A DNA stretch of 64,000 bases from Trypanosoma brucei (Eukaryota). Positions 11,132 through 60,211 of the stretch are shown here, piece by piece. The position numbers were made by a program, and so were the translations under genes. The stretch lies in assembly GCA_000002445.1 (NCBI GenBank), contig AL929603.2, positions 672,001 to 736,000 of the forward strand. Reading direction: 5' to 3'. The stretch's first letter is position 1, and each line of letters starts with the position of its first letter. Under the pieces are notes generated by a model. That model had not been told where the DNA came from. It did not search any database and saw nothing but the letters and a program-made list of their open reading frames with translations.

Positions 11132-12631
11132 ATGGCCATCGCTCCCGCCCTCCGTGATATGTTGGAGCGGAATACCATTCCACGCCGCCAACTCTTGGGA
11201 AGAAGATATCATGTAGTGACTGATATTGGCAAAGGAATGTTCAGTGAGGCTTTTCTGGTAGAGGACAAGCAGGCAGGCGGGGCACTGGCGGTGGTGAAGT
11301 CTTCAAGGATCGCGCAGGGAAATGCAGAGGGAATGAATAGGGAGCAACAGCTGCGTCTGGCCATTTCCGAGGCCCGCATTATGGCTATGTTCAATGACGA
11401 CGGCGTTGTACGACTCTTGGACTTCTGGTGCGAAGATGGAATTGATAGCATTTGTTTCTTAATGGAATATTGTGCAGGGGGGGACCTAGAGGCGTACCTG
11501 AGGCTCCGGTACCCACTTGCTGAGGGCCTTCTTCTGGTTTTCTTCGTACAGTGTCTCCTTGCTGTGGCGCACATTCACACAAAGGGAGTCATCCACCGGG
11601 ACCTCAAACCCGCCAACATATTGGTCGCAGAGGGGGACAGTGGCAATACCGTACCAACCTTAAAATTGACGGATTTCGGTCTTAGTGCCATGAACAATGC
11701 CGGCACCGCATTGGAGGAGCTCTCCCTCGTCGGCACACCACTGTACATGTCGCCCGAAGTTATACAACATGGAGCATGTGTCTTTGGAAGTGATGTGTGG
11801 AGTCTCGGTGTTGTCTTCTACCGCCTTATAACAAATGAACAGCCATTCAATGCATTGAACCAAAGGGCGTTGCACTTCAGTATCGTCAACACCCAGCCAC
11901 CCCATCCATGTAGTGTAGCGAAGCACTACTCACGCGAGCTCGGCGATCTCGTCATGGTAATGCTGGAGAAGGACATCGCGAAACGACCAACCGCGCGATA
12001 CCTCATCGCCTCGCCACTCTTTGAACGAGTCCTGCAGCGGTCCCCGTGGCGCAGTCGACCACTGCGTGGTGCCACATGTCTCTTCGTGTGTCGTACCGAC
12101 CGAACGGTAAACATCTTAGCGGAACCGCACTTTAGTGCCCCCATTGTGGCGACACTTGGCTTCGGGGAACACGTGTTTGTTTCGAATCGGTTGTGCGTTC
12201 GCACGGTGTTGAAACAGTGTAGCGTCACAGGAGCCGTGACTCGTGCCTTTACGTGGCTTCCGCCGCAGGCAAGCAACGGTGGAAATGGACGCAGTGACGG
12301 CGGTGGCGGCTCAAACCCCCATGCCTTAAACCCTTTCGAATGTTCCCACCGACCAGTCGCCAGGCCGCCGAGGACGATGCAAGTTACTGGTGAGGGTATT
12401 CTTTTGTGGTACCGTGTGGTTGGGCCGCGGGAGGGGTACTGCGCCCCGTCCGAGTGCGGGAGGAATTTGCTCTGGCATGTACATAACTACACTCCCTGTG
12501 GCCCGCTGCCCACTCATCCTGCCCCTGTGACAACGAATCTCCCGCGGCCAGTGAGCCCGGGGTCACCGGACAAGAAACAAACTTGGACCATAGGGCAAAT
12601 AATTTCATCATTGTTTGGCGCACATGGCTGA
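11132..12631 (+). CDS. Ser/Thr protein kinase, NEK-like, with a ~200-aa C-terminal extension
   Basis: Kinase motifs 'HRDLKPANILV', 'DFGLS' and 'GTPLYMSPEV' (NEK-type activation segment). 'MEYCAGGDLE' follows the NEK pattern. The glycine loop is 'IGKGMFSEAF'. Confidence 0.75.
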   Translation: MAIAPALRDMLERNTIPRRQLLGRRYHVVTDIGKGMFSEAFLVEDKQAGGALAVVKSSRIAQGNAEGMNREQQLRLAISEARIMAMFNDDGVVRLLDFWCEDGIDSICFLMEYCAGGDLEAYLRLRYPLAEGLLLVFFVQCLLAVAHIHTKGVIHRDLKPANILVAEGDSGNTVPTLKLTDFGLSAMNNAGTALEELSLVGTPLYMSPEVIQHGACVFGSDVWSLGVVFYRLITNEQPFNALNQRALHFSIVNTQPPHPCSVAKHYSRELGDLVMVMLEKDIAKRPTARYLIASPLFERVLQRSPWRSRPLRGATCLFVCRTDRTVNILAEPHFSAPIVATLGFGEHVFVSNRLCVRTVLKQCSVTGAVTRAFTWLPPQASNGGNGRSDGGGGSNPHALNPFECSHRPVARPPRTMQVTGEGILLWYRVVGPREGYCAPSECGRNLLWHVHNYTPCGPLPTHPAPVTTNLPRPVSPGSPDKKQTWTIGQIISSLFGAHG

Positions 12632-15335: not shown

Positions 15336-16253
15336 ATGAAGGTTTATTTCACATACGAGGGCAAGGACGCCAACGGCGTTGTGGTGGACACAACTATTGT
15401 GGAGGCATACAAGTTGAAGGTGGATATCCCATCCAAATGGCTCAGTGGGCCATGCAAACAGCTGCTGCAATTTGTAGTCACAACATATAACAAGAAAGAC
15501 CCGGAGCAGCAGTTGAACCCAGAGGAACTCAGCATGTGGCTTGGTAATGTGGAACTAAAACCAACAGATATTGTGGAGAGTCGAATTAATGAGTACAACG
15601 ATATCCGTATCGTACACACACCGAAGGGACGGTCGGGACAAAATCAGCAACCAGAAGGTTCCATCATATGTACCAACTATGGCTGCGGCCAGTATTTTCT
15701 TCCAGGGGAAAATAACGACACAGCCTGCAAACACCACAAGGAGCCACCTGTCTTTCACGACATTGAGAAGTACTGGCGCTGCTGCACATCACGGCGGGCG
15801 CGCGATTGGGAAGAGTTTAAGGCGATTCCGGCCTGTTGCACGGGGCCACATAGCACAGAAAACCAAGCCGTTTCATTTGCAAGTGCCCCCGTAGCGAATG
15901 TGCCTCTCGCCTCTGGTCAAGCCGCTGCCATCACGGGGGTTAATAATGCCACAGCAGGGGCACCAGCGGAGCGCCGTACAACAGGGCCACGTGAATTCGA
16001 GGCCGCGGTACGCGAGAAGCGGCGGGATGAACCGCAGGCCGTTGTGGATGGAAAGGCAAAGTGCCGTAACTTCGGCTGCCAGCAAGAGTTTATTGTGGCA
16101 GATAACCACCCAACGGCATGCCGTTACCACAGTGAGGGCCCCGTGTTTTGGGACACATATAGGTATTGGAAGTGTTGCCCAGACAAAAAGTGTTTCGACT
16201 TTGATGACTTCGTAAAGGTTCCCGGATGCAGCGTAGGGCCGCACCTGCTGTAA
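15336..16253 (+). CDS. CHORD-domain protein (two CHORD zinc-binding domains)
   Basis: Track ORF starts at TTG 15330; the first ATG is at 15336. Two copies of the CHORD signature are present: 'C.NYGCGQYF...NNDTACKHHKEPPVFHDIEKYWRCC....W.EFKAIP.CCTGPH' and 'CRNFGCQQEF...NHPTACRYHSEGPVFWDTYRYWKCC...FDFDDFVKVPGCSVGPH'. Confidence 0.7.
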   Translation: MKVYFTYEGKDANGVVVDTTIVEAYKLKVDIPSKWLSGPCKQLLQFVVTTYNKKDPEQQLNPEELSMWLGNVELKPTDIVESRINEYNDIRIVHTPKGRSGQNQQPEGSIICTNYGCGQYFLPGENNDTACKHHKEPPVFHDIEKYWRCCTSRRARDWEEFKAIPACCTGPHSTENQAVSFASAPVANVPLASGQAAAITGVNNATAGAPAERRTTGPREFEAAVREKRRDEPQAVVDGKAKCRNFGCQQEFIVADNHPTACRYHSEGPVFWDTYRYWKCCPDKKCFDFDDFVKVPGCSVGPHLL

Positions 16254-16302
16254 CCCAGTTCACGATCGATGATACACTTGCCGTCTTTGAGAAGCTTCTG
16301 GT

Positions 16303-16351
16303 TGTGTTTGTGTGTGTGTGCGTGCGTGCGTGCGTGTGTGTGTGTGTGTAT
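16303..16351. repeat. (GT)n / (GCGT)n microsatellite downstream of the CHORD gene
   Basis: 'gtgtgtttgtgtgtgtgtgcgtgcgtgcgtgcgtgtgtgtgtgtgtgta'. Confidence 0.9.
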
Positions 16352-16962
16352 ATGCTTGTGAAGGAGCAAGCAAATGACACAATGCCTCTGGAAACGACAT
16401 CAAAAGGCTGATTGGTGGCTACTTGTTTTAGCATGGAGGGGATCACTTGTGTAAACGAAAGTTACAGTAACACATCTGATTAAAAAATGGCGTGAACCCC
16501 AGGAAAGAAAGGAGGGATGCCCCTTAGCGTGTTAGTATTCCCGCCGGCCCTGAAATGCATTCACGACTTTACTGAGTACTTTGCTGTAAAAAAAAAAAAA
16601 AGGAGCCAGTAACACAGAGAAGGGATGTCTCGAAAGGACAGATGCGTCCACTACCGTTGCTGTGGCGCCTCACCTAATGATAAACGGGCATCGGTGCCTG
16701 CACATAGGTACGCGAAAAAAGACTTAATTACTATTGGTATTATCGTGGGCAGCGGACTCAAGCACGAAGACCGGTTCCGTGTTTATTCTTTCCTCGCCCT
16801 ATACACATCTTCCACAGCGATTTTGTGTCACTAAATGTTATCTTTCACACCCCACAATTATGTACATTTATATATTATTATTATTATTTATTTTTTCTCG
16901 TCACCTCTCCCTTCACGTGCTTACATCGCACAGCGCCGTAGGAGCACGAAAGCCCATCGCCG

Positions 16963-17487
16963 ATGGCCGACAAGCAGGAGAACTACGCACGCACAGCGAC
17001 CGTCGATCTGACGGTGCAGCACGAGAAGGCCTACCAGCGCCAGACGGCCGTCAATGAGAACATTCGCACGGCCTCGAAGAAGCACGTGAACCGCAGCGGG
17101 CACATTCGTTACTCCAAGAAGATCGGTCTCGGTTTCGCCACGCCCAAAGCTGCCATCAACGGAAAGTACATTGACCGCAAATGTCCCTTCACGAGCAATG
17201 TGTCCATTCGTGGCCGTATCCTCCGTGGCGTAGTGCACTCCACAAAGATGCGCCGTTCCATTGTCATCCGCCGTAACTACCTGCACTTCATCCGTAAGTA
17301 CCAGCGTTACCAGAAGCGCCACCGCAATATTACCGTCCACTGCAGCCCCTGCTTCGATCCGAAGCCTGGTGATGAGGTGGTGGTTGGACAATGCCGCCCG
17401 TTGAGCAAAACAATCCGCTATAACGTGCTGCAGGTCGTCTCCAAGTCCGCCGCCGATAAGATGGGGAAGAAGTTTTCCAAGAACTGA
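16963..17487 (+). CDS. RPS11: 40S ribosomal protein S11 (uS17)
   Basis: Near-colinear with eukaryotic RPS11, e.g. '[33 protein letters not shown]', '[14 protein letters not shown]' and '[15 protein letters not shown]'. ATG start; 174 aa. Confidence 0.92.
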
Positions 17488-18154
17488 GGTTGCAGATGTG
17501 GAATCAGCGGTGTCACGCTTACGACCGCAGGGGCTGTGACGGAATTTGTCTCGGCGCTATAGTCATATGGATGAAGGAAGGAATTAGGGGCCAAAGAGAG
17601 GGGAAAGAAAGGGACGGTAGAAGCAGCAGCTGTATACCAATCGGAGTGGCGTGGTTGCACATGGTATCTCACTCACTCCAATGGGCAAATGCTCTTGTTT
17701 CACGTACCCTGCACATTTTACACCCTTTCTCCTTGCTTGGTAACTCTTTCCTTTCCTCCTTTCATTTTCATTTTCATTTTTTATAACTGTTTACTTGTTG
17801 GGCCGCTGATTAGCACCGGCAATGAAAGAAACAAAAGGAGGAGGGCAACTCCGTTGGTTCTTTCTTTGCTGGAGAATCCACTACAAGTGCTCTACAGTGT
17901 CACTCGCTACAAGGCAAATTTTCTTCGAAAAGTTCCCTTGCTTACTTCCCTTTTACCTCGCCTTCTCACTTTCTGCGAAGGTTCGCTTTAACTTGCCAGT
18001 ACGCTTGTGAAGCGGTTGACGGTTATTACAAGGTTTATTATATCCCCCCAGAGTCGAAGCGAAAGCGCTAAAGCAAGCAAAGGTACATCAAGAAACAAGC
18101 TGTAAAAGCACAGGCACGGGTATATATAGATATATACACAAAAATATCTAAAAG

Positions 18155-18820
18155 ATGGACGCATCCAGTGCCGCTACAACAAAACCCTTCCAAGGCAACG
18201 TCCGCTGCGAATGGTTCCAGACCCCCTCGCAGGTCACGTTCACCTTCTACGTGAAGGAGCGTCAAAGGGGTGATGTGCGTGCAGACGTGACTGAGCAGTC
18301 ACTCACCGTTTCGATCCGCCTCGACCCCTCCGGCCGTGAATATCAGTATAATGTCGAGCGCTTCTACGCCCCGTTGGCGGAGGCGTCCGCTACTATTAAT
18401 ATCAGTGGCATGAAGGTGGAAGTTCAAGTCCGCAAGGCCGTTGAACAGCAATGGCCGACACTTGAAGCTCCGGAAGACGACGTGGTTTTGCCCAGCACCT
18501 CAGGAGGAACCCCAACAACCTCCACCATTGCTGGTCTGCCAGCCACCGCAAAGGACTTGCCGTATCCGAACAGCCGCGGCCGCGACTGGAGTGCTGTAAA
18601 ACTTGATGACGATGATGAAAAACCAGAAGGGGACCAAGCACTGAACGCGCTTTTCCAGAAGATTTACGGCAACGGCACAGACGAGCAGCGCCGGGCCATG
18701 ATGAAGTCCTTCGTGGAAAGCAACGGCACGGTGCTTTCCACGAACTGGGCTGACGTTGGAAACCGGCACGTAACCACAGAACCACCCACCGGAATGGAAG
18801 AAAAGAAGTACGAAGGCTAA
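18155..18820 (+). CDS. SGT1: SGT1-like HSP90 co-chaperone (CS + SGS domains, no TPR domain)
   Basis: N-terminal p23/CS-like fold ('[20 protein letters not shown]...'). The C-terminal SGS domain '[48 protein letters not shown]...[10 protein letters not shown]' closely matches human/yeast SGT1 ('[44 protein letters not shown]'). Confidence 0.72.
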   Translation: [221 protein letters not shown]

Positions 18821-19544
18821 ACAGAATGCAGGAGGAGGCTAATGAAAGCGAGCGACGACGGGAAGGATTCAAAGTAAATGTGCAAATGCATCCCTCTTTC
18901 CCCAACCCACAACCCTCCATCCTCCACCCTCCGCCCTCCGCCATCAGGTTAATTGCAAAGGCAAAAGGGGGGTAGAAAACAGAGAACAGACATCAGTTGG
19001 GTGTGGTGGCAAAACGATAACGGGGGATCAGGGACATGGCGAAAGGGAAAGGGATTGCAGGAACACTCTCAAGGAAATTGGCGCCACGCGTGAACTATCA
19101 GCATCATCAGGTGTACTCCAATGTTCCAGAGGATAAGCTTATTGGGACCGTTTCCCATGGACGCAAGTTGCCACACTTATTATTATTATATTCACTACTA
19201 TTATTACAACTGGCACTGCCAGTTAGTCCATACTTTATCATACTTGGAAGTCCCTCACTATCGCTGTGTCACCACCTTTTCCACTGTCTCGCAAACTTAA
19301 TTTCACACTCCATGTGCACGAATTGGACTTGCATTTTCTCTGTTCTCTTCTCACCCACTAAGCCTCATACACACGTCATCAGATAGAAGGATAGAAAATG
19401 CGCCGTTACGACGATCCGCTCCGAGGGGGGTCGTCTTCTCTTAGCTGTGGTTTATTCGGTGTTATATTTGTTTATATTTGAATGTGGACACATGAATCAT
19501 ATCATACACGTCTCCATAATACCAGCCAATAAGGATCCGTATCA

Positions 19545-52455: not shown

Positions 52456-53505
52456 ATGTCGACATCAAAATCTGAAAAAGGTGAAGAAAGTTTTGCAGAG
52501 GGAGAAAGTAATAACGAAAGTGATGATGACAGTGGTAATGATGGCGGGCATGAAGCAAATAATAATAATAATAATTGCAACAATGGAAGTGCTGAGGCCT
52601 GCACAAAAGAAGAGACACCGGTGGCACGGAACGGGAATAATAGCGAATCCCCGCCACAACAAGAAGAGAAACCCGCCACCCAGTCCAGTATTCTTGCGCT
52701 TTCTTGGTGTTGGGGAATGGTGGATCTTTTAAGGCTGAAAAATTTCACAGAGTTAACAGAGGTGAATGTTAACAACTGTGTTGACCTCGCAACTCTAATG
52801 GGACTGAAATATTGCAAGAAATTGAAAAGACTTAATCTCCACAAGTGTACAAAACTACAAGACCTGTCGGAAGCGGGGAGTTGCTGGAGGTTGGAGACTT
52901 TGATTGTGTGCGAATGCGAGCGACTCGAAAATTTGAGAGGGTTGGGGGGTCATCAGAGATTATCGTGCGTCAGAATTTCCCGCTGTGGGATGCTCGCCGA
53001 GGTAAACCTCGACGGTACCGTAAAGCTCAAAAAATTGTCCATTGACGAATGCTGGGCACTGAAAGAGGTTTATGTAACAAGATGTAAAACATTAGAATCG
53101 GTTGCACTTGTCGACTGCAGCCGACTAAAGAGTTTGTGTGGGCTCGTCCACCTGGTGTCTCTAAAATCACTTAATCTGGAGGGGTGCATAAGCATCGCGG
53201 AAATCGGGACCTTGAACACAAATAATAAGTTGGAAAGACTCAACCTTGGAAATTGCTTTATGTTGACAGATATGGAATTTCTGAATCACTGCATGAAGCT
53301 GAAGAGAGTGGTGGCTCTGGGAGTCCCCATAGATGAAGTGGTGAAAAGTAATTTAAGGAATAGGGGCGTCAGAGTTATTGATGAAAACGATGTGGATGAA
53401 TCATACAAGTGTTACCAACGACAATATCTGGAACGGGCATCCGTTGCGGAAAAGTCGTTACAGTGGGAGGAAAATGTTAAGGAAATTCTCTCGTACCCTC
53501 GTTAA
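52456..53505 (+). CDS. leucine-rich repeat protein
   Basis: Tandem ~23-25-aa LRRs, e.g. 'LKRLNLHKCTKLQDLS', 'LETLIVCECERLENLRGL', 'LKKLSIDECWALKEV' and 'LKSLNLEGCISIAEI'. The acidic N-terminus has a poly-N run. It is the last gene of the + array. Confidence 0.6.
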   Translation: MSTSKSEKGEESFAEGESNNESDDDSGNDGGHEANNNNNNCNNGSAEACTKEETPVARNGNNSESPPQQEEKPATQSSILALSWCWGMVDLLRLKNFTELTEVNVNNCVDLATLMGLKYCKKLKRLNLHKCTKLQDLSEAGSCWRLETLIVCECERLENLRGLGGHQRLSCVRISRCGMLAEVNLDGTVKLKKLSIDECWALKEVYVTRCKTLESVALVDCSRLKSLCGLVHLVSLKSLNLEGCISIAEIGTLNTNNKLERLNLGNCFMLTDMEFLNHCMKLKRVVALGVPIDEVVKSNLRNRGVRVIDENDVDESYKCYQRQYLERASVAEKSLQWEENVKEILSYPR

Positions 53506-53650
53506 TGTGCCATACAAAATTATAGGCTTCGCAAACTAGTGAACATTATACATTGAACATATGTGCATACATGACTGGTTTTGATTGCATTATGTCGCCA
53601 GCCTTCTAAAGCTGACAACGCTCAGCTTAGTTGACTTACGCTTTTTACAT

Positions 53651-53678
53651 CCCAGCCCCTGCACGTGGTAGGGCTGGG
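53651..53678. other. GC-rich perfect 8-bp inverted repeat (hairpin) with a 12-nt loop containing CACGTG, 150 nt past the LRR gene stop
   Basis: 'CCCAGCCC ctgcacgtggta GGGCTGGG'. Confidence 0.5.
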
Positions 53679-54850
53679 GCACAAATGACACATAAAGAGA
53701 AAGAAGGAAACTAACGCAGAGAAATTGGAAATGAAGAGGGAGGAAGCCCTTCAGGTATTTGTCGTGTGGCATTTATGTTGCAGGTTTGCAAACTTTTTCT
53801 CTCAGTTACTTTACCACAAGGGAATGTAGAGACTGGATGAGGGAATTGTCCGTATGTCCGTCACGACAATGGCGGGGAGGAGGCGTGGGTGGGAAACGTA
53901 ACTCAGGGATGGCTGCGCGTCGCCACGAAAGTGAGACACGGCCTGCCAGAACCCTGAGCCAGGCGAGTAACCAAGCACGAGATCAGGTTAACGAAAACGG
54001 GAAGCAGGAGAACATTGCGAGCTCCTCTTTTTTTTTTCTTTTCCTCATGGTGTGGTGAGGCTGTGTCCCGTTTTAAACACCTAAAACACTTCCTGGCATC
54101 GCCGTCGAAGGGCAGACAGGAATAGACGCGAAATGTAACTGCACTTTTTCGCACTTGCCGGGGCGCGCCGCAGGGGGTGCACAAACAGCTGGGAGGGACA
54201 AGGCTGCCGGCACGCCCCTCATGTTTCATTGGGTTCCGACGCGACGCGGCAACGGGGACTCGCTTACAAACGGATTTGAAGAGAGGGGGACCACCCATAA
54301 GCGAATTTGTATTCGTTTTCCGGCGTGACGCTCCTCTTTTTCTTCCCCCACCTCGCCTGACGATACTGAACAAGCCGCTCACGGGCCTGGGCTCCTCAAC
54401 TTCCGCCGCGGTACGGGCACAGGCAATGGAGCCGTCTCCTCCTTGCCGTGCGGGTGAAAAGAGTTAGCCCCATCGTTCCATTCCGCACTTCGGCACCACC
54501 CTGCATTCAACCCCCAAGGAGAAATTGGCGCGCGGCTACCCACCCTCTGTCGTGGGATATCGCGGGTCCCTGCTCTGTCGGGCCCGTCAAAACGCCAAGA
54601 TCCCTTATTTGCGCGATTTCATCACCCATGCCGACGATCCTTGGGCTCAATCAAAAACCCAGCGCGGCAACAGCAACAAACGACCCACTGCGGCGCACAA
54701 ATTCAAATGAATCACGACTGCCATCCGACGGCATCTCATAAACCGGTATGCGCCGGGGCCCACAGCCGATCGCACACTTCTCTAAGTTATCACATCGTTC
54801 CAAACTCCTACCGGCAGCAAAAAGGCACGCCGAGGAAGCTTTTCTTTCCG

Positions 54851-54867
54851 CCCCCCCCCCCCCCCCC
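54851..54867. repeat. C17 homopolymer (G17 on the minus strand) inside the strand-switch region
   Basis: 'ccgccccccccccccccccccaacc'. Confidence 0.85.
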
Positions 54868-56537
54868 AACCGAAGGACTTACGAGTTTTCTTTAAGCAGG
54901 CAGCAGCGGCAATAAAGAGGGGGGCGATATATTCTGGGTCAAACAGACGCCGAGCAACATTCGCGGCGTCAGACCCAAAGCCAACGGAAGTAAAGAAGTT
55001 GCAACCGTAAAAACAGGAACACAAGCCAAAAATAAAAATGGTAAAGAAAAAAGGAAAAAAATGGGGACTGCGCGACTTAGCACGTGCACATTAACGACCG
55101 CTAAAGCAAAGAATACTCCGCACGTAATGCATTTACGTCGCTTAAACTTCATACGGTAGCAAGCACACGCCACAGCGAGCATAAATACATATCAGATTCA
55201 TCCATTTGCTTCCCATCGTATTGCAACAACGTTAGCAAACCTTTGCTTCATGCTGCAGCCCCTAATGATAAAGGTGACCATCCGATCCCACAACGCCAAC
55301 CACGAAGATCCAAAGCACTCAAGATCGTTGGAGTTATTCACAAAAACATGCTTGGAAGCGTTTCATCGCTCCTTCACACAGTCCCTAAAGGTTTAAAAAG
55401 CGTTACCGCGATAGCAAGGAGACCCAAGTGAGTCACCCGTGCCAAAATTTTGAAGATGCCAACAAACAAATATATATCATCCTAGTTACGGTTCAAATAT
55501 ATTGACCGGTGGGTGGACATGAACACACACATACACACATGCAGTTTGCACATGTCAGGAAATTGTGCAGCAACGTTCTGCCTGAGGAATCAAAAGGTGA
55601 AAACGGCTCCCAAAACTTGCAATAGTGGGCGCCTCAGCTGAGGAAATCTTCACAAAAATAAGGAAAGCAATGGTTAACCCTTCACTTCACTACCCGCAAT
55701 ACTCCACCGGAGGTGCCAATGACAGATGGCCACGCAACGGACTTCACCGCGGGGACTTGGCTCGACCAAACAGTTACCAATACTTGGGCGTGGACCGTTG
55801 AGTGCAATGACACGATAACCACACACCCCCGGCACAACAAAGGTGGAACCATGGATTCGCCTTCGGAACCTCAAGAAGATAGACAACCCGCAGCGTCACA
55901 TTTCATAGAATTCACGTTCAGCTGCGGCTCCTGCGCCAAAAAGAAACTGCACGTCCTTTCCTCCTTCCTTAACAGCCTCCCCCACCCGTCAGTCAGAAGT
56001 TATTGCTCGCATCTTACTACAGGTGCATACGGAAAACAAGCGCCACATTCCCCTACCCACAGCAAAGAGTTGGCGCTCGACCTACCATTCATACCCACAT
56101 TCTTGTTTTCCCCCTTATCTCCCCACATGGTTTCAACTCCCGTCAGCGGTTCACAAGTACCAGTATGCTTCCATAAGGCGAATATCTGACAAGAACAATT
56201 CTTTCCACGATGACCAATGTTTCCTGTGCGAATCACCGCAGTAAGGAAATGAAAGGGGATGAAAACCTTCACTTCCATTACCTTAAACAATGCAAATTTA
56301 CATTACACGACCTTTCTCCCACACATACACCATGTTTCGCAGCGCACAACAGCTATTCGCGAACCCTGAAGTCTGACTTTCCCTCAGAAACAGTCTGGTT
56401 GATAATGTCAAAGAAAACTCTCAAACATTAACCAAAGTCTTCGTAGCTTTTAAAAACATCAAGACCTGCATATCGGTTAATAGCCTACTCCTCTTGCAGA
56501 CTTGCTCGACCATTTGATTACATACCCCAAGTCCTCA

Positions 56538-56855
56538 TTATCGATTGACTCCCCGTTCCAACATATCAAGCAAAAGTTCCAAGTACCTCCTGTTTTGCCG
56601 TTGGAGCTGCTTCATTTGATTAGCAAATTCTACACGTATATCCTGCAGTTGTTTCTGCTGCTCATCTCTCAACTGCTCTGGTTGTGCAGTGGAAATAATA
56701 CCCAACTTTCCCAGCTGTTGGCGCATATCCTCCGCCGTGCGTTCATCGTCATTCAAAGATGGCACAAAGTCGCTCAGAATATCCCTAGATCCCTTCAGCG
56801 TCTCCATCGACGATTTGGATTGATCTGGGGTGGCATTTTCTGTCACTTGAAGCAT
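56538..56855 (-). CDS. small coiled-coil protein (hypothetical, 105 aa)
   Basis: ATG-initiated minus-strand ORF. The sequence is E/Q/R/L heptad-like ('QLRDEQQKQLQDIRVEFANQMKQLQRQNRRYLELLLDML'). The overlapping plus-strand ORF is Leu-rich antisense junk. Confidence 0.35.
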   Translation of the reverse strand: MLQVTENATPDQSKSSMETLKGSRDILSDFVPSLNDDERTAEDMRQQLGKLGIISTAQPEQLRDEQQKQLQDIRVEFANQMKQLQRQNRRYLELLLDMLERGVNR

Positions 56856-59562
56856 CGTTTAGTGGCGCTTTCGCCGCTTGAAAGCCAGTGTGGGAAAGTG
56901 CACCCTGGCCCGTGACATTCCCTTGGCTCATCATCAAAACGGAAAAAATAAAGTCGTGCAGCTGTCTTGCGTCTTCCGTGGCCACAATATTTGTCAGAGC
57001 CTCGACGCCAAGTCAATGTATAGGGAGTTAAGCTCTGTTTTGCCGGCCGACCGCCGATCAACATCCCCCACCAAATCCCGAAGTGGTTTTCTGTGTACCT
57101 CGCCTCCGCGTCCGCAACAAACGTTCCACATAGTCACTCACTTTAACCCTCTTTTTTTGGAGCACGTGCGTGCGGTGCGGCGAATGCAAATAGAAACCGG
57201 TAAATATGTTTACAGTCCAAAGAGAAACAACTCAGTGAAGAAATAGCAAGTTTTTCCGCAATGGTATCGCGATTGCGGCTCCCAATTTTCAACGTTCCTC
57301 AAACTACTGTTAGCCCAGCGACTCCCAACAAAAACAATTATATGGGACCAGATTAAACCGACTCTGACATTTTCACGACAGAACCACCCAGCTGAATCAC
57401 AACTCAGTGGAACCACCCGAACAACAAAAAGCACATGTACTCAAATGGGGGGGGGGTCCGAAGCCTTTCCCCAAACAAGCGCGGTATACCATTTCCTCGA
57501 CAAAATAACACTGACAAAGAAACCGCACACAAACACACACACCTCCCATAAATTTACCCCAGCACATTCACTCACAAAGGCATAACCCGCATGAAAATGC
57601 ATGCGCGTGCATGTGTTTGGCGGCATGTGCCATACGATGCCGCTTAGGAGTCGGGCGCAAAACAGGTTGTGTCTGCCGACATGGAAGAGGAAATTAGTGA
57701 TTTTAGATGCACAACCGAAACTGCGACCACAAAAGAAATGGTTCAAGGCAATGGACCGGGCGGGGGACGGGAACCCCAAGCAGACATAACAACACGGTGA
57801 GAAATAATGAACGAAACATTTACCAGCAGGGAATGGGCCGCGCAAGGCGAACCCACAAGCAGAGAAACACAAACACATTAGCATATATTTATGTCGGTAT
57901 GCTTCACCATACGGTTGTACAGTAACAGACGCCCCGTCGATAGACTCAACCGCTTTTTCTGCTCCTCTTTTTATTTACGGGAAAATGAGGAACTGAAATA
58001 ATAATGACAGACTACAGCGTGTGTTTCACGCCTTGCACACACACCTAATTCGTAGCGACAAACTTACATAGGTTATTACGAGAGTAATCCTCTCCATGTG
58101 GTGAAAAGGTGAAAGGGAAAAGTAGCGCCTAGATGAGTTTTGCGCAACGCCCTAACTTGAACTCAGCTGCTACTGTATTTTTTTATTCTTTTTATTTTTC
58201 AACTTTTAGGACATGCGAACGCAACTGCATTACGCGTTGGGAAATACACACAGCAACAAAGCACTTCGGGATCGTGCCAAAACAACCATGCATGTATGTA
58301 TGTATATTAATAAAACGCTTTTACTTGAAATGTAACCTCCCTAGAGCTCATTGGAAAATATAACGGCCCTTCCCGTTTACCCACCCTCCTCGCACAAAAA
58401 CATACATACGTTTATGCATATGTGGATACATTTATAAGATATGCAATGGAAAGGGTGGAAAGGGAACAACAAGACGGAATTAATGGTAGGAGTCGTCATC
58501 TTACGCCTTTTGTCAGCCCTATCCCATGGCACACGCGCACGCACAGGCACTTGCACTTGCACTTGCACTAAACACACTCCGAAAGCACAAGTCAGCGATT
58601 TGCGTGTAAAAACAAAAACACGAGCAGACTCTACGGATGTAAAACAAAAAAAGCAAGTGGTTTCCATTAAACATAAGGCACGGCAAACAGCACAGATATT
58701 TTTCCACATGTATAACGTCATATTGTCTTACATTTTCCATGATGAGTATCTCACCACTGGAGTCACACAAATGTTCCTCTCATGTATTCGAATACCGACC
58801 TTCAGTACCGTGCCCACAAGTATGCACTCGTGAATTTCAACATCAAACATAATAAAGGCAGTCCATCACTTAAATATAAATGTGTGATAAGTTCGTTTCG
58901 GAGTTCCCGCGCCTTTTTTCTCTCTTCTTTTTCTTGTCCTATTATTGCCTTGTTATTATCATTACTATTGTTGTTGTTATTGCTTTTGTAAGCCCTTTCG
59001 ACTAGTGTGCCAAACTTTCGCAATTCGGAAAGATCCGCCCCCGCTCAGCCCACACATACGCACTTCTCTGTTTTAACAGCACGGAGAGAGACGGATGTGT
59101 TTTCATGCGATAAATGATACACGACTTCGTTTGTTTTGCTTCAGCCATATATGCTGCAAACCCAATCTCACATCTCCTTTATACGGCAAACTTATACGAA
59201 AATGACACATAAAACCAAATAGTAGAGATACCTTTTTTTAAAAAAAAAATTAGAAAAATAGAATTCAGCAAGTTGCCCTGAAAGGAAAGAAGATGTGCAC
59301 CGCCCATAAACCACATACACACATACATGTGTGTGTGTATGTGTGTACATATGTGCAATGAGAAAACGAAAGAATTAATTAACTACATCACTTGAAGAAA
59401 AGGAAAAATACAAGAGAAATTCATGGGAAGAATTTTAAAAATAACCAATAGGAATCATCATGCTCGCCACCAGCATCAGCCACAAATAAATAAATGTGTG
59501 TAAAAGAGAGAGAGAAAAAAAAAAGAGAAGAGCCTTCAAATGGCGGTAAGAGTGAAGTGAAT

Positions 59563-59602
59563 AACAATAATAATAATAATAATAATGATAATAATAATAA
59601 TA
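59563..59602. repeat. (AAT)n microsatellite
   Basis: 'aataataataataataataatgataataataataatatt'. Confidence 0.85.
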
Positions 59603-59722
59603 TTTTCTGTGGTGATAACAATAAAACACAATAAGTAGAAAGTGTAGGGTTGGGGAGAAACAGCTGAGCCGGGGCACAGGAAAAGGAAATAAAAATAAAG
59701 GGAATGAGATGTTGTACACAAA

Positions 59723-60211
59723 CTATTTGGATTTCTTCAGACGACTGAATTCCACAGTGAATTGCGATACGGATACCGCATTTCCCGATTTTTCATCATA
59801 TTCCATCCAATCTGTGCTCAAATCCGCTGCCTCAAACGTCGCTCCCTCCGCTTCCACCACCCACTTGTCATCAATCTCCAATTCCGTAGGCGTCGCTCCC
59901 CGCACTTCAATTATCAGTATTGAATTCCCATCGCCTTTTCCATTATCCTCTTCAGGGCGGTACGTGCCGTAACTCTCGGGGTCAATATGTGCAGTGATGA
60001 GAGTTTTGCATGAAGCGCATTTGAAGGCGGCGTTACGCGTCCCGCCACCGCCGCTGTCACATTCCTCGCTCTCATCAACATAAACAAAATTAGGACTGAA
60101 TTCCCTGCAGGCATCACATGTTACTTTCAAACCCCAGTTGCGAGGACGCATTGGGCGAATACAAACAACACCTTCCGTTTCAGCGGACACCGAAAGGCGG
60201 TAAAGTGGCAT
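59723..60211 (-). CDS. DUF866 / CXXC-motif zinc-binding protein (C1orf123-like)
   Basis: 162 aa with two CxxC pairs ('CDAC...' and 'CASC') at the spacing typical of the DUF866 family. ATG start confirmed on the reverse complement. Confidence 0.5.
   Translation of the reverse strand: MPLYRLSVSAETEGVVCIRPMRPRNWGLKVTCDACREFSPNFVYVDESEECDSGGGGTRNAAFKCASCKTLITAHIDPESYGTYRPEEDNGKGDGNSILIIEVRGATPTELEIDDKWVVEAEGATFEAADLSTDWMEYDEKSGNAVSVSQFTVEFSRLKKSK

What the first reader, a model, noticed from the sequence alone, without database searches (positions are those of the whole stretch)
15336..18820. CHORD-domain protein and SGT1, known HSP90 co-chaperone partners, lie two genes apart with only RPS11 between them
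CHORD proteins (plant RAR1, metazoan CHP-1/melusin) bind SGT1's CS domain and HSP90. The tandem-CHORD gene (15336..16253) and the CS+SGS gene (18155..18820) are about 2 kb apart in the same transcription unit. Kinetoplastid gene arrays are not generally functionally clustered, so this may be coincidence. The pairing is still specific enough to note, and co-transcription from one array would give matched copy number.
Basis: partly seen in the sequence, partly recalled or inferred. Interest (0 to 1): 0.5.

Follow-up and report, generated by a model that had tools for sequence, protein, structure and literature searches.

The report
Neighbouring HSP90 co-chaperone genes in Trypanosoma
Two genes for helper proteins of the HSP90 chaperone (CHORD and SGT1) do lie about 2 kb apart in Trypanosoma brucei, but only in the genus Trypanosoma, and published data show the two mRNAs are regulated separately, so the closeness is most likely an accident of gene order.

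Summary
Window 15336-16253(+) encodes a tandem-CHORD protein. 16963-17487(+) encodes ribosomal protein S11. 18155-18820(+) encodes a TPR-less SGT1 with CS and SGS domains. The window is Trypanosoma brucei chromosome 1, and the genes are the annotated Tb927.1.3170, .3180 and .3200.

The order CHORD-RPS11-SGT1 is shared by T. brucei, T. vivax, T. melophagium and T. cruzi, inside a fully collinear 10-gene block. In Leishmania major and Phytomonas the same block lacks CHORD. L. major CHORD lies about 43 kb away at the chromosome end. In four bodonid-type contigs CHORD has other neighbours, and in a fifth SGT1 has other neighbours.

The two genes are not co-regulated. SGT1 mRNA is a strong ZC3H11 target (9.5-fold bound, 9-fold heat-induced). 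CHORD mRNA is not (1.15-fold and 1.7-fold). (AUU)n repeats follow SGT1 in all four trypanosomes, but follow CHORD only in T. brucei.

Both proteins keep HSP90-contact residues, but the plant-type CHORD-II/CS interface residues are mostly not conserved.

The genes were already annotated and their interaction was predicted in 2013. The most likely reading is lineage-specific synteny without a clustering function. Interest is low.

The parts
15336..16253 (+). CHORD-protein gene (Tb927.1.3170), 305 aa. Architecture: N-terminal ubiquitin-like beta-grasp domain, CHORD-I, linker, CHORD-II. There is no CS domain.
   Evidence: Pfam CHORD x2, E 9e-40. PDB hits 2yrt and 2xcm_E. 48 kinetoplastid-type homologues, nearly all full length. 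Gene ID from PMC9538636.
15336..15620 (+). N-terminal domain of the CHORD protein (aa 1-95), predicted ubiquitin-like beta-grasp fold.
   Evidence: AF2 block-mean pLDDT 91-98 over aa 1-90. Foldseek PDB hits to ubiquitin, SUMO and NEDD8 with TM(target) 0.55-0.77 at about 10% identity. No Pfam hit even at E<=10. Conserved in all aligned kinetoplastid homologues.
15666..15851 (+). CHORD-I (aa 111-172). All 8 Zn ligands are present, and it keeps the His-Asp pair (H141, D142) that contacts ADP in plant RAR1.
   Evidence: Residue mapping onto AtRAR1 CHORD-II. Invariant columns in alignment A1. Residue roles from PMC2935968.
16062..16244 (+). CHORD-II (aa 243-303). All 8 Zn ligands are present. Trp272 replaces the otherwise invariant ADP-contacting His. 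It is preceded by a conserved PQxIVDGKA extension.
16874..16888 (+). (ATT)5 repeat in the CHORD-RPS11 spacer, immediately upstream of the RPS11 polypyrimidine tract. It is probably outside the CHORD mRNA (inferred).
   Evidence: It is absent at this place in T. vivax, T. melophagium and T. cruzi. CHORD mRNA is not enriched on ZC3H11.
16963..17487 (+). 40S ribosomal protein S11 gene (Tb927.1.3180), 174 aa.
   Evidence: Pfam Ribosomal_S17_N and Ribosomal_S17. 81-88% identical in other trypanosomatids, and always directly upstream of SGT1.
17689..17991 (+). 100-aa low-complexity ORF, annotated as hypothetical in one T. b. gambiense record. Probably not a gene.
   Evidence: Called only in L005. 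Not called in L006, L008, L009 or L012. The translation is pyrimidine-tract-like.
18155..18820 (+). SGT1 gene (Tb927.1.3200), 221 aa. CS domain (aa 17-94, nt 18203-18436) and SGS domain (aa 143-219, nt 18581-18811). No TPR domain.
   Evidence: Pfam. PDB hits 1rl1, 2xcm_C, 2jki_S. Homologues outside kinetoplastids are SGT1 proteins. Gene ID and the lack of TPR are described in PMC6197667.
19176..19205 (+). AU-rich (AUU)-repeat element downstream of SGT1, within its presumed 3'UTR. This is the ZC3H11-type heat-shock stabilisation motif.
   Evidence: Sequence. (ATT)3 at 19179-19187. (ATT)3, (ATT)19 and (ATT)29 lie downstream of SGT1 in T. vivax, T. melophagium and T. cruzi. SGT1 is listed as a ZC3H11 target with '(yes)' for (AUU)3 in PMC3616968 Table 1.

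Best explanation
The region holds three ordinary, single-copy, already annotated T. brucei genes: CHORD (Tb927.1.3170), RPS11 (Tb927.1.3180) and SGT1 (Tb927.1.3200). They lie inside one long RNA polymerase II directional gene cluster.

Both flanking genes encode HSP90 (HSP83) co-chaperones.
- SGT1 is the TPR-less kinetoplastid form. It keeps the HSP90-binding face of its CS domain.
- The CHORD protein has the architecture ubiquitin-like domain, CHORD-I, CHORD-II. Both CHORD domains keep their zinc ligands and most of the HSP90-binding hydrophobic patch.

I infer that both dock on the HSP83 N-domain and can sit in the same chaperone complex. A direct plant-type CHORD-II/CS contact is not supported at residue level.

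Their closeness on the chromosome is a Trypanosoma-specific piece of synteny, produced by one small rearrangement relative to Leishmania and Phytomonas. It has no operon-like role. The genes are co-transcribed with dozens of unrelated genes, separated by trans-splicing and polyadenylation, and their mRNA levels are then set individually. SGT1 belongs to the ZC3H11/(AUU)n heat-shock regulon. CHORD does not.

Shown here: gene identities, synteny pattern, residue conservation, and the distribution of (AUU)n repeats. Taken from papers: ZC3H11 binding and heat induction. Inferred: HSP83 binding by both proteins, and the neutrality of the adjacency.
For: Identity:
- Pfam and PDB matches.
- 99.7-100% identity to T. 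brucei-group chromosome 1.

Synteny:
- SNAP-separase-kinase-hyp-CHORD-RPS11-SGT1-RabGAP-AAA-DUF4456 is collinear in T. brucei, T. vivax, T. melophagium and T. cruzi. The pair is therefore no better conserved than its unrelated neighbours.
- L. major and Phytomonas EM1 have separase-Brix-hyp-RPS11-SGT1-RabGAP-AAA-DUF4456 without CHORD.
- L. major CHORD sits at 738.9-739.8 kb, and SGT1 at about 695 kb, on the same strand of chromosome 20. CHORD is 2.7 kb from the chromosome end, and a second assembly also places it at the contig end.
- Bodo saltans and two divergent relatives share WD40-CHORD-giant fn3 gene.
- A parabodonid-like contig and a bodonid-like SGT1 contig (tandem SGT1 x2) show no linkage.

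Separate regulation:
- PMC3616968 Table S1 gives SGT1 bound/flow-through 9.48 and a 41C/27C ratio of 9.04. CHORD gives 1.15 and 1.74.
- SGT1 is listed among heat-inducible genes in a 2026 preprint, and CHORD is not mentioned in its main text.
- (ATT)n>=3 follows SGT1 in all four trypanosomes, but follows CHORD only in T. brucei.

Protein level:
- The CS HSP90-face residues Y157/F168/K221/E223 map to F21/Y32/K87/E89.
- CHORD Zn ligands are 8 of 8 in both domains.
- The HSP90 patch is largely kept (with residue roles).
Against: - A named pair within two genes has a naive probability of about 4e-4.
- A July 2026 preprint reports that co-complex genes in L. major are enriched in shared transcription units and lie closer together than random pairs. 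[quoted passage not shown] Position could therefore matter.
- In L. major the two genes are still on the same chromosome and strand, 43 kb apart. An unnamed EukProt genome numbers them 31 genes apart.
- The polarity of the rearrangement is unresolved, because no Paratrypanosoma or other early-branching trypanosomatid locus could be retrieved.
- No direct interaction or expression experiment was done here.
- Steady-state mRNA levels were read from one published data set only.
Confidence: 0.75

Rival explanations
1. Selected proximity. CHORD was brought next to SGT1, or kept there, in the Trypanosoma lineage. Neighbouring positions in a polycistronic unit receive the same nascent transcription and the same position-dependent response when initiation stops. 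This would help two partners of one HSP90 complex stay in proportion.
For: - The preprint 10.64898/2026.07.29.740908 reports positional expression gradients and an excess of adjacent co-complex pairs in L. major.
- The adjacency is kept across the deepest sampled splits of Trypanosoma.
- Both proteins keep HSP90-binding residues.
- The interaction of exactly these two T. brucei proteins was predicted from gene fusions in other eukaryotes (PMC3714255).
Against: - CHORD is one of only two genes that differ between the Trypanosoma and Leishmania/Phytomonas versions of the block. It is therefore the least conserved element, not the most.
- The mRNAs behave very differently (9.0-fold against 1.7-fold on heat shock; flow-through rpkm 107 against 39), and RPS11 lies between them.
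- Trypanosoma-wide conservation equals background synteny.
- The preprint is not peer reviewed, and its analysis was done in L. major, where the pair is 43 kb apart.
Confidence: 0.13
2. The two proteins are not functional partners in trypanosomes at all. Each is an independent HSP83 co-chaperone, or has another role, so the pairing is a coincidence of annotation as well as of position.
For: - Zhang et al. 2010 state that the CHORD-CS contact is unique to plant CHORD-II.
- Here RAR1 E170 and W217, whose mutation weakens the contact, map to V254 and P302 in CHORD-II and to P123 and P171 in CHORD-I.
- SGT1 G182 and I185, whose mutation abolishes binding, map to T46 and S49.
- CHORD-II has Trp at the ADP-contacting His position.
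Against: - Five of eleven mapped CS contact residues (D180, E183, Q184, Y199, R203) are kept.
- A conserved PQxIVDGKA extension precedes CHORD-II where plant RAR1 has its SGT1-binding extension.
- Both proteins keep HSP90-N contact residues at non-overlapping sites, so they could sit in one complex even without a direct contact.
- From memory and not checked here: human CHP-1 and melusin have been reported to bind SGT1.
Confidence: 0.12

Closest known systems
Plant RAR1-SGT1-HSP90 complex (PDB 2XCM; Zhang et al. 2010, PMC2935968)
   Same: - A tandem-CHORD protein without a CS domain, plus a separate SGT1 with CS+SGS.
- Zn ligands are fully conserved.
- The CS HSP90-face residues are conserved, and the CHORD hydrophobic HSP90 patch is largely conserved.
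   Different: - No Cys or His residues in the linker between the CHORDs, where plant RAR1 has a CCCH motif (sequence; the motif itself recalled from memory).
- An extra N-terminal ubiquitin-like domain.
- SGT1 lacks TPR.
- The RAR1 residues E170 and W217 and the SGT1 residues G182 and I185 that hold the plant CHORD-II/CS interface are replaced.
- CHORD-II has Trp instead of the ADP-contacting His.
Metazoan CHORD proteins CHP-1 (CHORDC1) and melusin
   Same: - Two CHORD domains that bind the HSP90 N-domain.
- The best PDB sequence hit is the human CHP-1 CHORD domain (2yrt, E 6e-16).
- Like these proteins, it lacks the plant-type SGT1-contact residues.
   Different: - The metazoan proteins carry a C-terminal CS domain, and the trypanosome protein has none (also noted in PMC6197667).
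- The trypanosome protein has an N-terminal beta-grasp domain instead.
TPR-less SGT1 of insects
   Same: - CS+SGS only, about 210-220 aa.
- Lepidopteran SGT1 homologues are among the best non-kinetoplastid hits (E about 1e-36 to 1e-32).
   Different: - An independent lineage.
- Bodonid SGT1 is longer (about 280-340 aa) but has no TPR hit either.
ZC3H11/(AUU)n heat-shock mRNA regulon of trypanosomes (Droll et al. 2013, PMC3616968)
   Same: SGT1 mRNA is a listed target. Its downstream region carries (AUU) repeats in all four Trypanosoma species examined.
   Different: CHORD mRNA is not enriched on ZC3H11. Outside T. brucei its downstream region lacks the repeat. The two neighbours therefore belong to different post-transcriptional regimes.

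Membership tests
CHORD-domain proteins (Pfam PF04968) | Two roughly 60-residue CHORD domains scoring above the Pfam gathering threshold | tested here: met
   135.6 bits against a cut-off of 24.6, two stretches.
CHORD-domain proteins (Pfam PF04968) | Eight zinc ligands per domain (AtRAR1 C159, C164, C178, H181, C196, C197, C213, H218) | tested here: met
   CHORD-I: C112, C117, C131, H134, C149, C150, C167, H172. CHORD-II: C243, C248, C262, H265, C280, C281, C298, H303. These are invariant or nearly invariant in 32 kinetoplastid-type sequences.
CHORD-domain proteins (Pfam PF04968) | Invariant His-Asp/Glu pair contacting Mg-ADP of HSP90 (RAR1 H188, D189) | tested here: inconclusive
   CHORD-I keeps H141 and D142. 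CHORD-II has W272 and D273, and Trp is the rule in most kinetoplastids.
Plant RAR1 type | No CS domain, with SGT1 supplied in trans | tested here: met
   No CS hit in the CHORD protein. A separate CS+SGS gene is present.
Plant RAR1 type | CHORD-II residues that bind SGT1-CS (I153, E170, W217) | tested here: not met
   E170 maps to V254 and W217 to P302 (CHORD-I: P123 and P171). By manual alignment of the extension, the I153 position is V237.
Plant RAR1 type | CCCH motif between CHORD-I and CHORD-II (recalled from memory) | tested here: not met
   The linker, aa 173-242, contains no Cys or His (sequence).
Metazoan CHP-1/melusin type | C-terminal CS domain after CHORD-II | tested here: not met
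   The protein ends 2 residues after the last Zn ligand of CHORD-II.
SGT1 | SGS domain at the C-terminus | tested here: met
   PF05002, 109 bits, aa 143-219.
SGT1 | CS domain with an HSP90-binding face (AtSGT1a Y157, F168, K221, E223) | tested here: met
   PF04969, 26.7 bits. Mapped to F21, Y32, K87, E89.
SGT1 | N-terminal TPR domain | tested here: not met
   The CS domain starts at aa 17 and there is no TPR hit. This is the known kinetoplastid condition (PMC6197667).
Functional gene cluster (operon-like) | Adjacency conserved beyond background synteny across lineages | tested here: not met
   Present only in Trypanosoma, inside a fully collinear block. Absent in L. major, Phytomonas and five bodonid-type contigs.
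Functional gene cluster (operon-like) | Coordinated expression of the members | tested here: not met
   From published data: heat induction 9.04 against 1.74, and ZC3H11 binding 9.48 against 1.15. The (AUU)n element is consistently present only downstream of SGT1.
HSP90-SGT1-CHORD ternary complex | Physical association of the two proteins with HSP83 | not testable with these tools
   Needs co-IP, Y2H or a multimer structure prediction with interface scores.

The most novel reading that the evidence does not exclude
In the stem of Trypanosoma, CHORD was relocated to sit two genes upstream of SGT1. It has been held there because neighbouring positions in a polycistronic unit receive matched nascent transcription. 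That would make this pair a concrete, testable example of gene order serving as dosage coupling for partners of one chaperone complex.
Probability: 0.1. Interest if true: 0.45.

Novelty: already known. Interest (0 to 1): 0.15.

Why it matters
It matters little as a finding. Both genes are annotated. Their domain peculiarities (SGT1 without TPR, CHORD protein without CS) are published. Their interaction was predicted in 2013.

The value of this check is negative evidence. It shows that a tempting partner-genes-side-by-side pattern in a trypanosome array is lineage-specific synteny, with gene-specific post-transcriptional control. That is what the standard model of kinetoplastid gene expression predicts.

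If the minority reading were true, the pair would be a convenient test case for the recent claim that gene order within polycistronic units tunes stoichiometry.

Tried and rejected
- An Rfam scan and a tRNA scan of the whole window found nothing.
- Pfam on the CHORD N-terminal 105 aa and on the linker found nothing, even at E<=10.
- I looked for an early-branching trypanosomatid (Paratrypanosoma, Blechomonas) to fix the direction of the rearrangement. None could be recognised among the named hits, and all 12 contig look-ups are used.
- I tried to learn the source organisms of the Ubl-Cdc37 protein and of the distant Ubl-CHORD proteins. The cluster look-up returned no names.
- The supplement of the 2026 genome-architecture preprint is not held, so I could not check whether this pair is in its co-complex list.
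- I considered folding a CHORD-II/linker/CS chimera to test the interface.
- I considered that the (ATT)5 at 16874-16888 makes CHORD a ZC3H11 target. I rejected this because CHORD mRNA is not enriched on ZC3H11 (1.15-fold), the repeat abuts the RPS11 polypyrimidine tract, and it is absent in the other trypanosomes.
- I considered CacyBP/SIP (also CS+SGS) as the identity of the 221-aa protein. I rejected this because all best non-kinetoplastid and PDB hits are SGT1, and PMC6197667 found no CacyBP in kinetoplastids.
Full report
**What is there**

The window is Trypanosoma brucei-group chromosome 1.
- The CHORD ORF is 99.7% identical (one residue differs) to T. b. gambiense DAL972 record FN554964.1 at about 448-470 kb.
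- The RPS11 and SGT1 ORFs are 100% identical to that record.

| Coordinates (+) | Protein | Pfam result |
|---|---|---|
| 15336-16253 | 305 aa | two CHORD domains, PF04968, E 9e-40 |
| 16963-17487 | RPS11 | Ribosomal_S17_N + Ribosomal_S17 |
| 18155-18820 | 221 aa | CS (26.7 bits, cut-off 21.3) + SGS (E 1e-31) |

Sequence searches of the PDB give matching results.
- The CHORD protein matches human CHP-1 CHORD (2yrt) and Arabidopsis RAR1 CHORD-II (2xcm_E).
- The CS domain matches human SGT1 (1rl1) and AtSGT1a (2xcm_C, 2jki_S).

Published tables name the genes Tb927.1.3170 (CHORD), Tb927.1.3180 (RPS11) and Tb927.1.3200 (SGT1) (PMC9538636, PMC6197667 and the supplement of 10.64898/2026.01.20.700697).

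All real-looking long ORFs from position 7 to 53505 are on the + strand. The three genes therefore lie in one directional cluster.

**Anatomy of the two proteins**

The CHORD protein has no CS domain. This makes it unlike metazoan CHP-1 and melusin. It also has no Cys or His in the inter-CHORD linker.

Its first 95 or so residues have no Pfam match even at E<=10. An AlphaFold2 model built from 32 homologues gives block-mean pLDDT of 91-98 over residues 1-90, with a beta-beta-alpha-beta-beta-beta topology. Foldseek matches ubiquitin, SUMO and NEDD8 with TM(target) 0.55-0.77 at about 10% identity. The architecture is therefore ubiquitin-like domain, CHORD-I, linker, CHORD-II.

I mapped both proteins onto the Arabidopsis RAR1 and SGT1a numbering of the 2XCM complex (residue roles from PMC2935968; mapping).
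- **Zinc ligands.** All eight are present in both CHORDs.
- **HSP90 patch on the CHORDs.** F187, W194 and F207 are kept in both. The F204 position is W158 in CHORD-I and F289 in CHORD-II.
- **ADP contact.** CHORD-I keeps the His-Asp pair (H141, D142). CHORD-II has Trp272 at the 'invariant' His position, as in most kinetoplastids.
- **SGT1 CS, HSP90 face.** Y157/F168/K221/E223 map to F21/Y32/K87/E89, so this face is conserved.
- **Plant CHORD-II/CS interface.** This is mostly not conserved. RAR1 E170 and W217 become V254 and P302. SGT1 G182 and I185 become T46 and S49.
- **Partial similarity.** D180, E183, Q184, Y199 and R203 of SGT1 are kept. A conserved PQxIVDGKA extension precedes CHORD-II, where plant RAR1 has its SGT1-binding extension.

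Zhang et al. state that the direct CHORD-CS contact is a property of plant CHORD-II only. The safe inference is that both trypanosome proteins bind the HSP83 N-domain at different sites. A direct contact between them remains open.

**Synteny**

| Lineage | Gene order around the locus |
|---|---|
| T. brucei (two assemblies), T. vivax, T. melophagium, T. cruzi | SNAP-separase-kinase-hyp-CHORD-RPS11-SGT1-RabGAP-AAA-DUF4456 |
| L. major chr 20, Phytomonas EM1 | separase-Brix-hyp-RPS11-SGT1-RabGAP-AAA-DUF4456 |
| Bodo saltans and two divergent metagenomic relatives | WD40-CHORD-giant fn3 protein |
| Parabodonid-like contig | CHORD among unrelated genes |
| Bodonid-like contig | two tandem SGT1 genes, no RPS11 or CHORD nearby |

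In L. major and Phytomonas the homologue of the T. brucei 305-aa hypothetical protein directly precedes RPS11. A six-frame search finds no CHORD remnant there.

L. major CHORD lies at 738.9-739.8 kb on chromosome 20, and SGT1 at about 695 kb, on the same strand. CHORD is 2.7 kb from the end of the GenBank chromosome record. A second, long-read assembly places it 1.4 kb from the contig end.

A six-frame check across all 17 loci finds CHORD, RPS11 and SGT1 together only in Trypanosoma.

Two conclusions follow.
- Conservation within Trypanosoma is no more than the background collinearity of the whole block.
- CHORD is one of only two genes that differ between the Trypanosoma and the Leishmania/Phytomonas versions of that block. 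It is the mobile element, not the anchored one.

Given the bodonid outgroups, parsimony mildly favours insertion of CHORD in the Trypanosoma stem. Without Paratrypanosoma the direction is not settled.

**Regulation**

Trypanosomatid arrays are co-transcribed, and mRNA levels are set afterwards (PMC6597758 and PMC3616968 abstracts). Droll et al. (PMC3616968, Table S1; column headings verified) report:

| mRNA | ZC3H11 bound / flow-through | 41C / 27C | Flow-through rpkm |
|---|---|---|---|
| SGT1 | 9.48 | 9.04 | 107 |
| CHORD | 1.15 | 1.74 | 39 |

A 2026 preprint again lists SGT1 among heat-inducible co-chaperones. Its main text does not mention CHORD.

I tested the cis element directly. (ATT)n>=3 occurs downstream of SGT1 in all four trypanosomes:
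- T. brucei: x3, inside an AU-rich stretch at 19176-19205.
- T. vivax: x3.
- T. melophagium: x19.
- T. cruzi: x29.

It does not occur downstream of CHORD, except for an (ATT)5 in T. brucei at 16874-16888. That repeat abuts the RPS11 polypyrimidine tract and is probably outside the CHORD mRNA. Neither L. major nor Phytomonas has the repeat at these positions, as Droll et al. noted for Leishmania chaperone genes.

The two neighbours are therefore under different post-transcriptional control. The 'matched dosage through co-transcription' idea is not supported.

**What is already known**

- PMC6197667 describes the TPR-less kinetoplastid SGT1. It notes that kinetoplastid CHORD homologues lack the CS/ACD domain, and it shows the synteny of the SGT1 locus.
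- PMC9538636 lists the single T. brucei CHORD gene as an HSP83 co-chaperone.
- PMC3714255 (2013) predicted, from CHORD-CS fusions in other eukaryotes, that exactly these two T. brucei proteins (XP_001219015.1 and XP_001219018.1) interact.

None of the papers I could search comments on the adjacency itself, but it is plain from the gene numbers.

**Counter-view**

A July 2026 preprint (10.64898/2026.07.29.740908) reports that expression declines along transcription units. It also reports that co-complex genes in L. major share units and lie closer than random pairs. This keeps a selected-proximity reading alive, and I give it about 0.1-0.13. Against it:
- In L. major this pair is 43 kb apart.
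- The preprint is not peer reviewed.
- The expression data above show no coupling.

**Chance**

This is my own rough estimate, assuming about 9,000 genes. A named pair falls within two positions with probability of about 4e-4. Among roughly 40 HSP90-system genes, about 0.3 such pairs are expected. Among the thousands of known interacting pairs in a genome, several are expected.

**Verdict**

The functional-clustering interpretation is not supported. The genes and their likely partnership are already in the literature. Interest is low.

The side observations may be worth a separate look:
- The ubiquitin-like domain on kinetoplastid CHORD proteins, and its fusion to Cdc37 in one unidentified organism.
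- The His-to-Trp change in CHORD-II.
- The second top ZC3H11 target in the same window.

Noticed in passing
window 15336-15620 (+), aa 1-95 of the CHORD protein: Kinetoplastid CHORD proteins carry a confidently predicted ubiquitin-like beta-grasp N-terminal domain (block-mean pLDDT 91-98 over aa 1-90) with no Pfam family. A search of 1.8 billion representative proteins found only 13 relatives. Of the ten scanned against Pfam, four are CHORD proteins, five have no Pfam family, and one (P0174, 377 aa, source organism unknown) has this domain fused to Cdc37_N + Cdc37_M, another HSP90 co-chaperone.
   Followed up: partly
window 16149-16151 (+), Trp272 of the CHORD protein: CHORD-II has Trp (VFWD) where Zhang et al. 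2010 describe an invariant His that hydrogen-bonds the ADP beta-phosphate in HSP90. The Trp is shared by most kinetoplastid homologues, while CHORD-I keeps VFHD.
   Followed up: partly
window 59723-60211 (-) and 59566-59601 (-): This ORF is a CXXC_Zn-b_euk/DUF866 protein (PF05907, E 2e-38), i.e. Tb927.1.3390. It is the single most ZC3H11-enriched mRNA in Droll et al. (11.8-fold bound, 28.6-fold heat-induced). A long (AUU)n run lies 122-157 nt downstream of its stop codon. Two of the top four ZC3H11 targets therefore lie about 40 kb apart in this window, in opposite, converging gene arrays.
   Followed up: partly
window about 53506-59722: This is a convergent strand-switch region between the + array (ending with an LRR protein at 52456-53505) and the - array. 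It is lower in GC and the GC skew changes sign. There are no tRNA or Rfam hits anywhere in the window.
   Followed up: no
L016 8009-10315: A bodonid-like metagenomic contig carries two tandem SGT1 genes (331 and 338 aa, CS+SGS) with no RPS11 or CHORD nearby. PMC6197667 also mentions extra copies in basal lineages.
   Followed up: no
L001 2756-3646; L010 10001-10642 (L. major chr 20): PMC9538636 Table 2 lists L. major CHORD as LmjF.20.1620, two numbers from SGT1 (LmjF.20.1640). In two L. major assemblies the CHORD gene lies at the chromosome or contig end, about 43 kb from SGT1. The published ID therefore looks wrong, or the numbering is not positional.
   Followed up: partly
This hints at loose linkage there as in L. 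major. No contig was available to check.
   Followed up: no
window 17689-17991 (+): A 100-aa ORF between RPS11 and SGT1 is annotated as a hypothetical protein in T. b. gambiense. It is low-complexity and pyrimidine-tract-like, and it is not called in another T. brucei-group assembly or in other species. It is probably a spurious gene model.
   Followed up: partly
window 11132-12631 (+) versus L010 4161-5114 and L015 6149-7096: Besides CHORD, the only other difference in the collinear block is the gene after separase. Trypanosoma has a protein kinase there, and Leishmania and Phytomonas have a Brix-domain gene.
   Followed up: no
window 16300-16350 (+): There is an imperfect GT-rich (TG/TGCG) microsatellite just downstream of the CHORD stop codon, presumably in its 3'UTR.
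   Followed up: no
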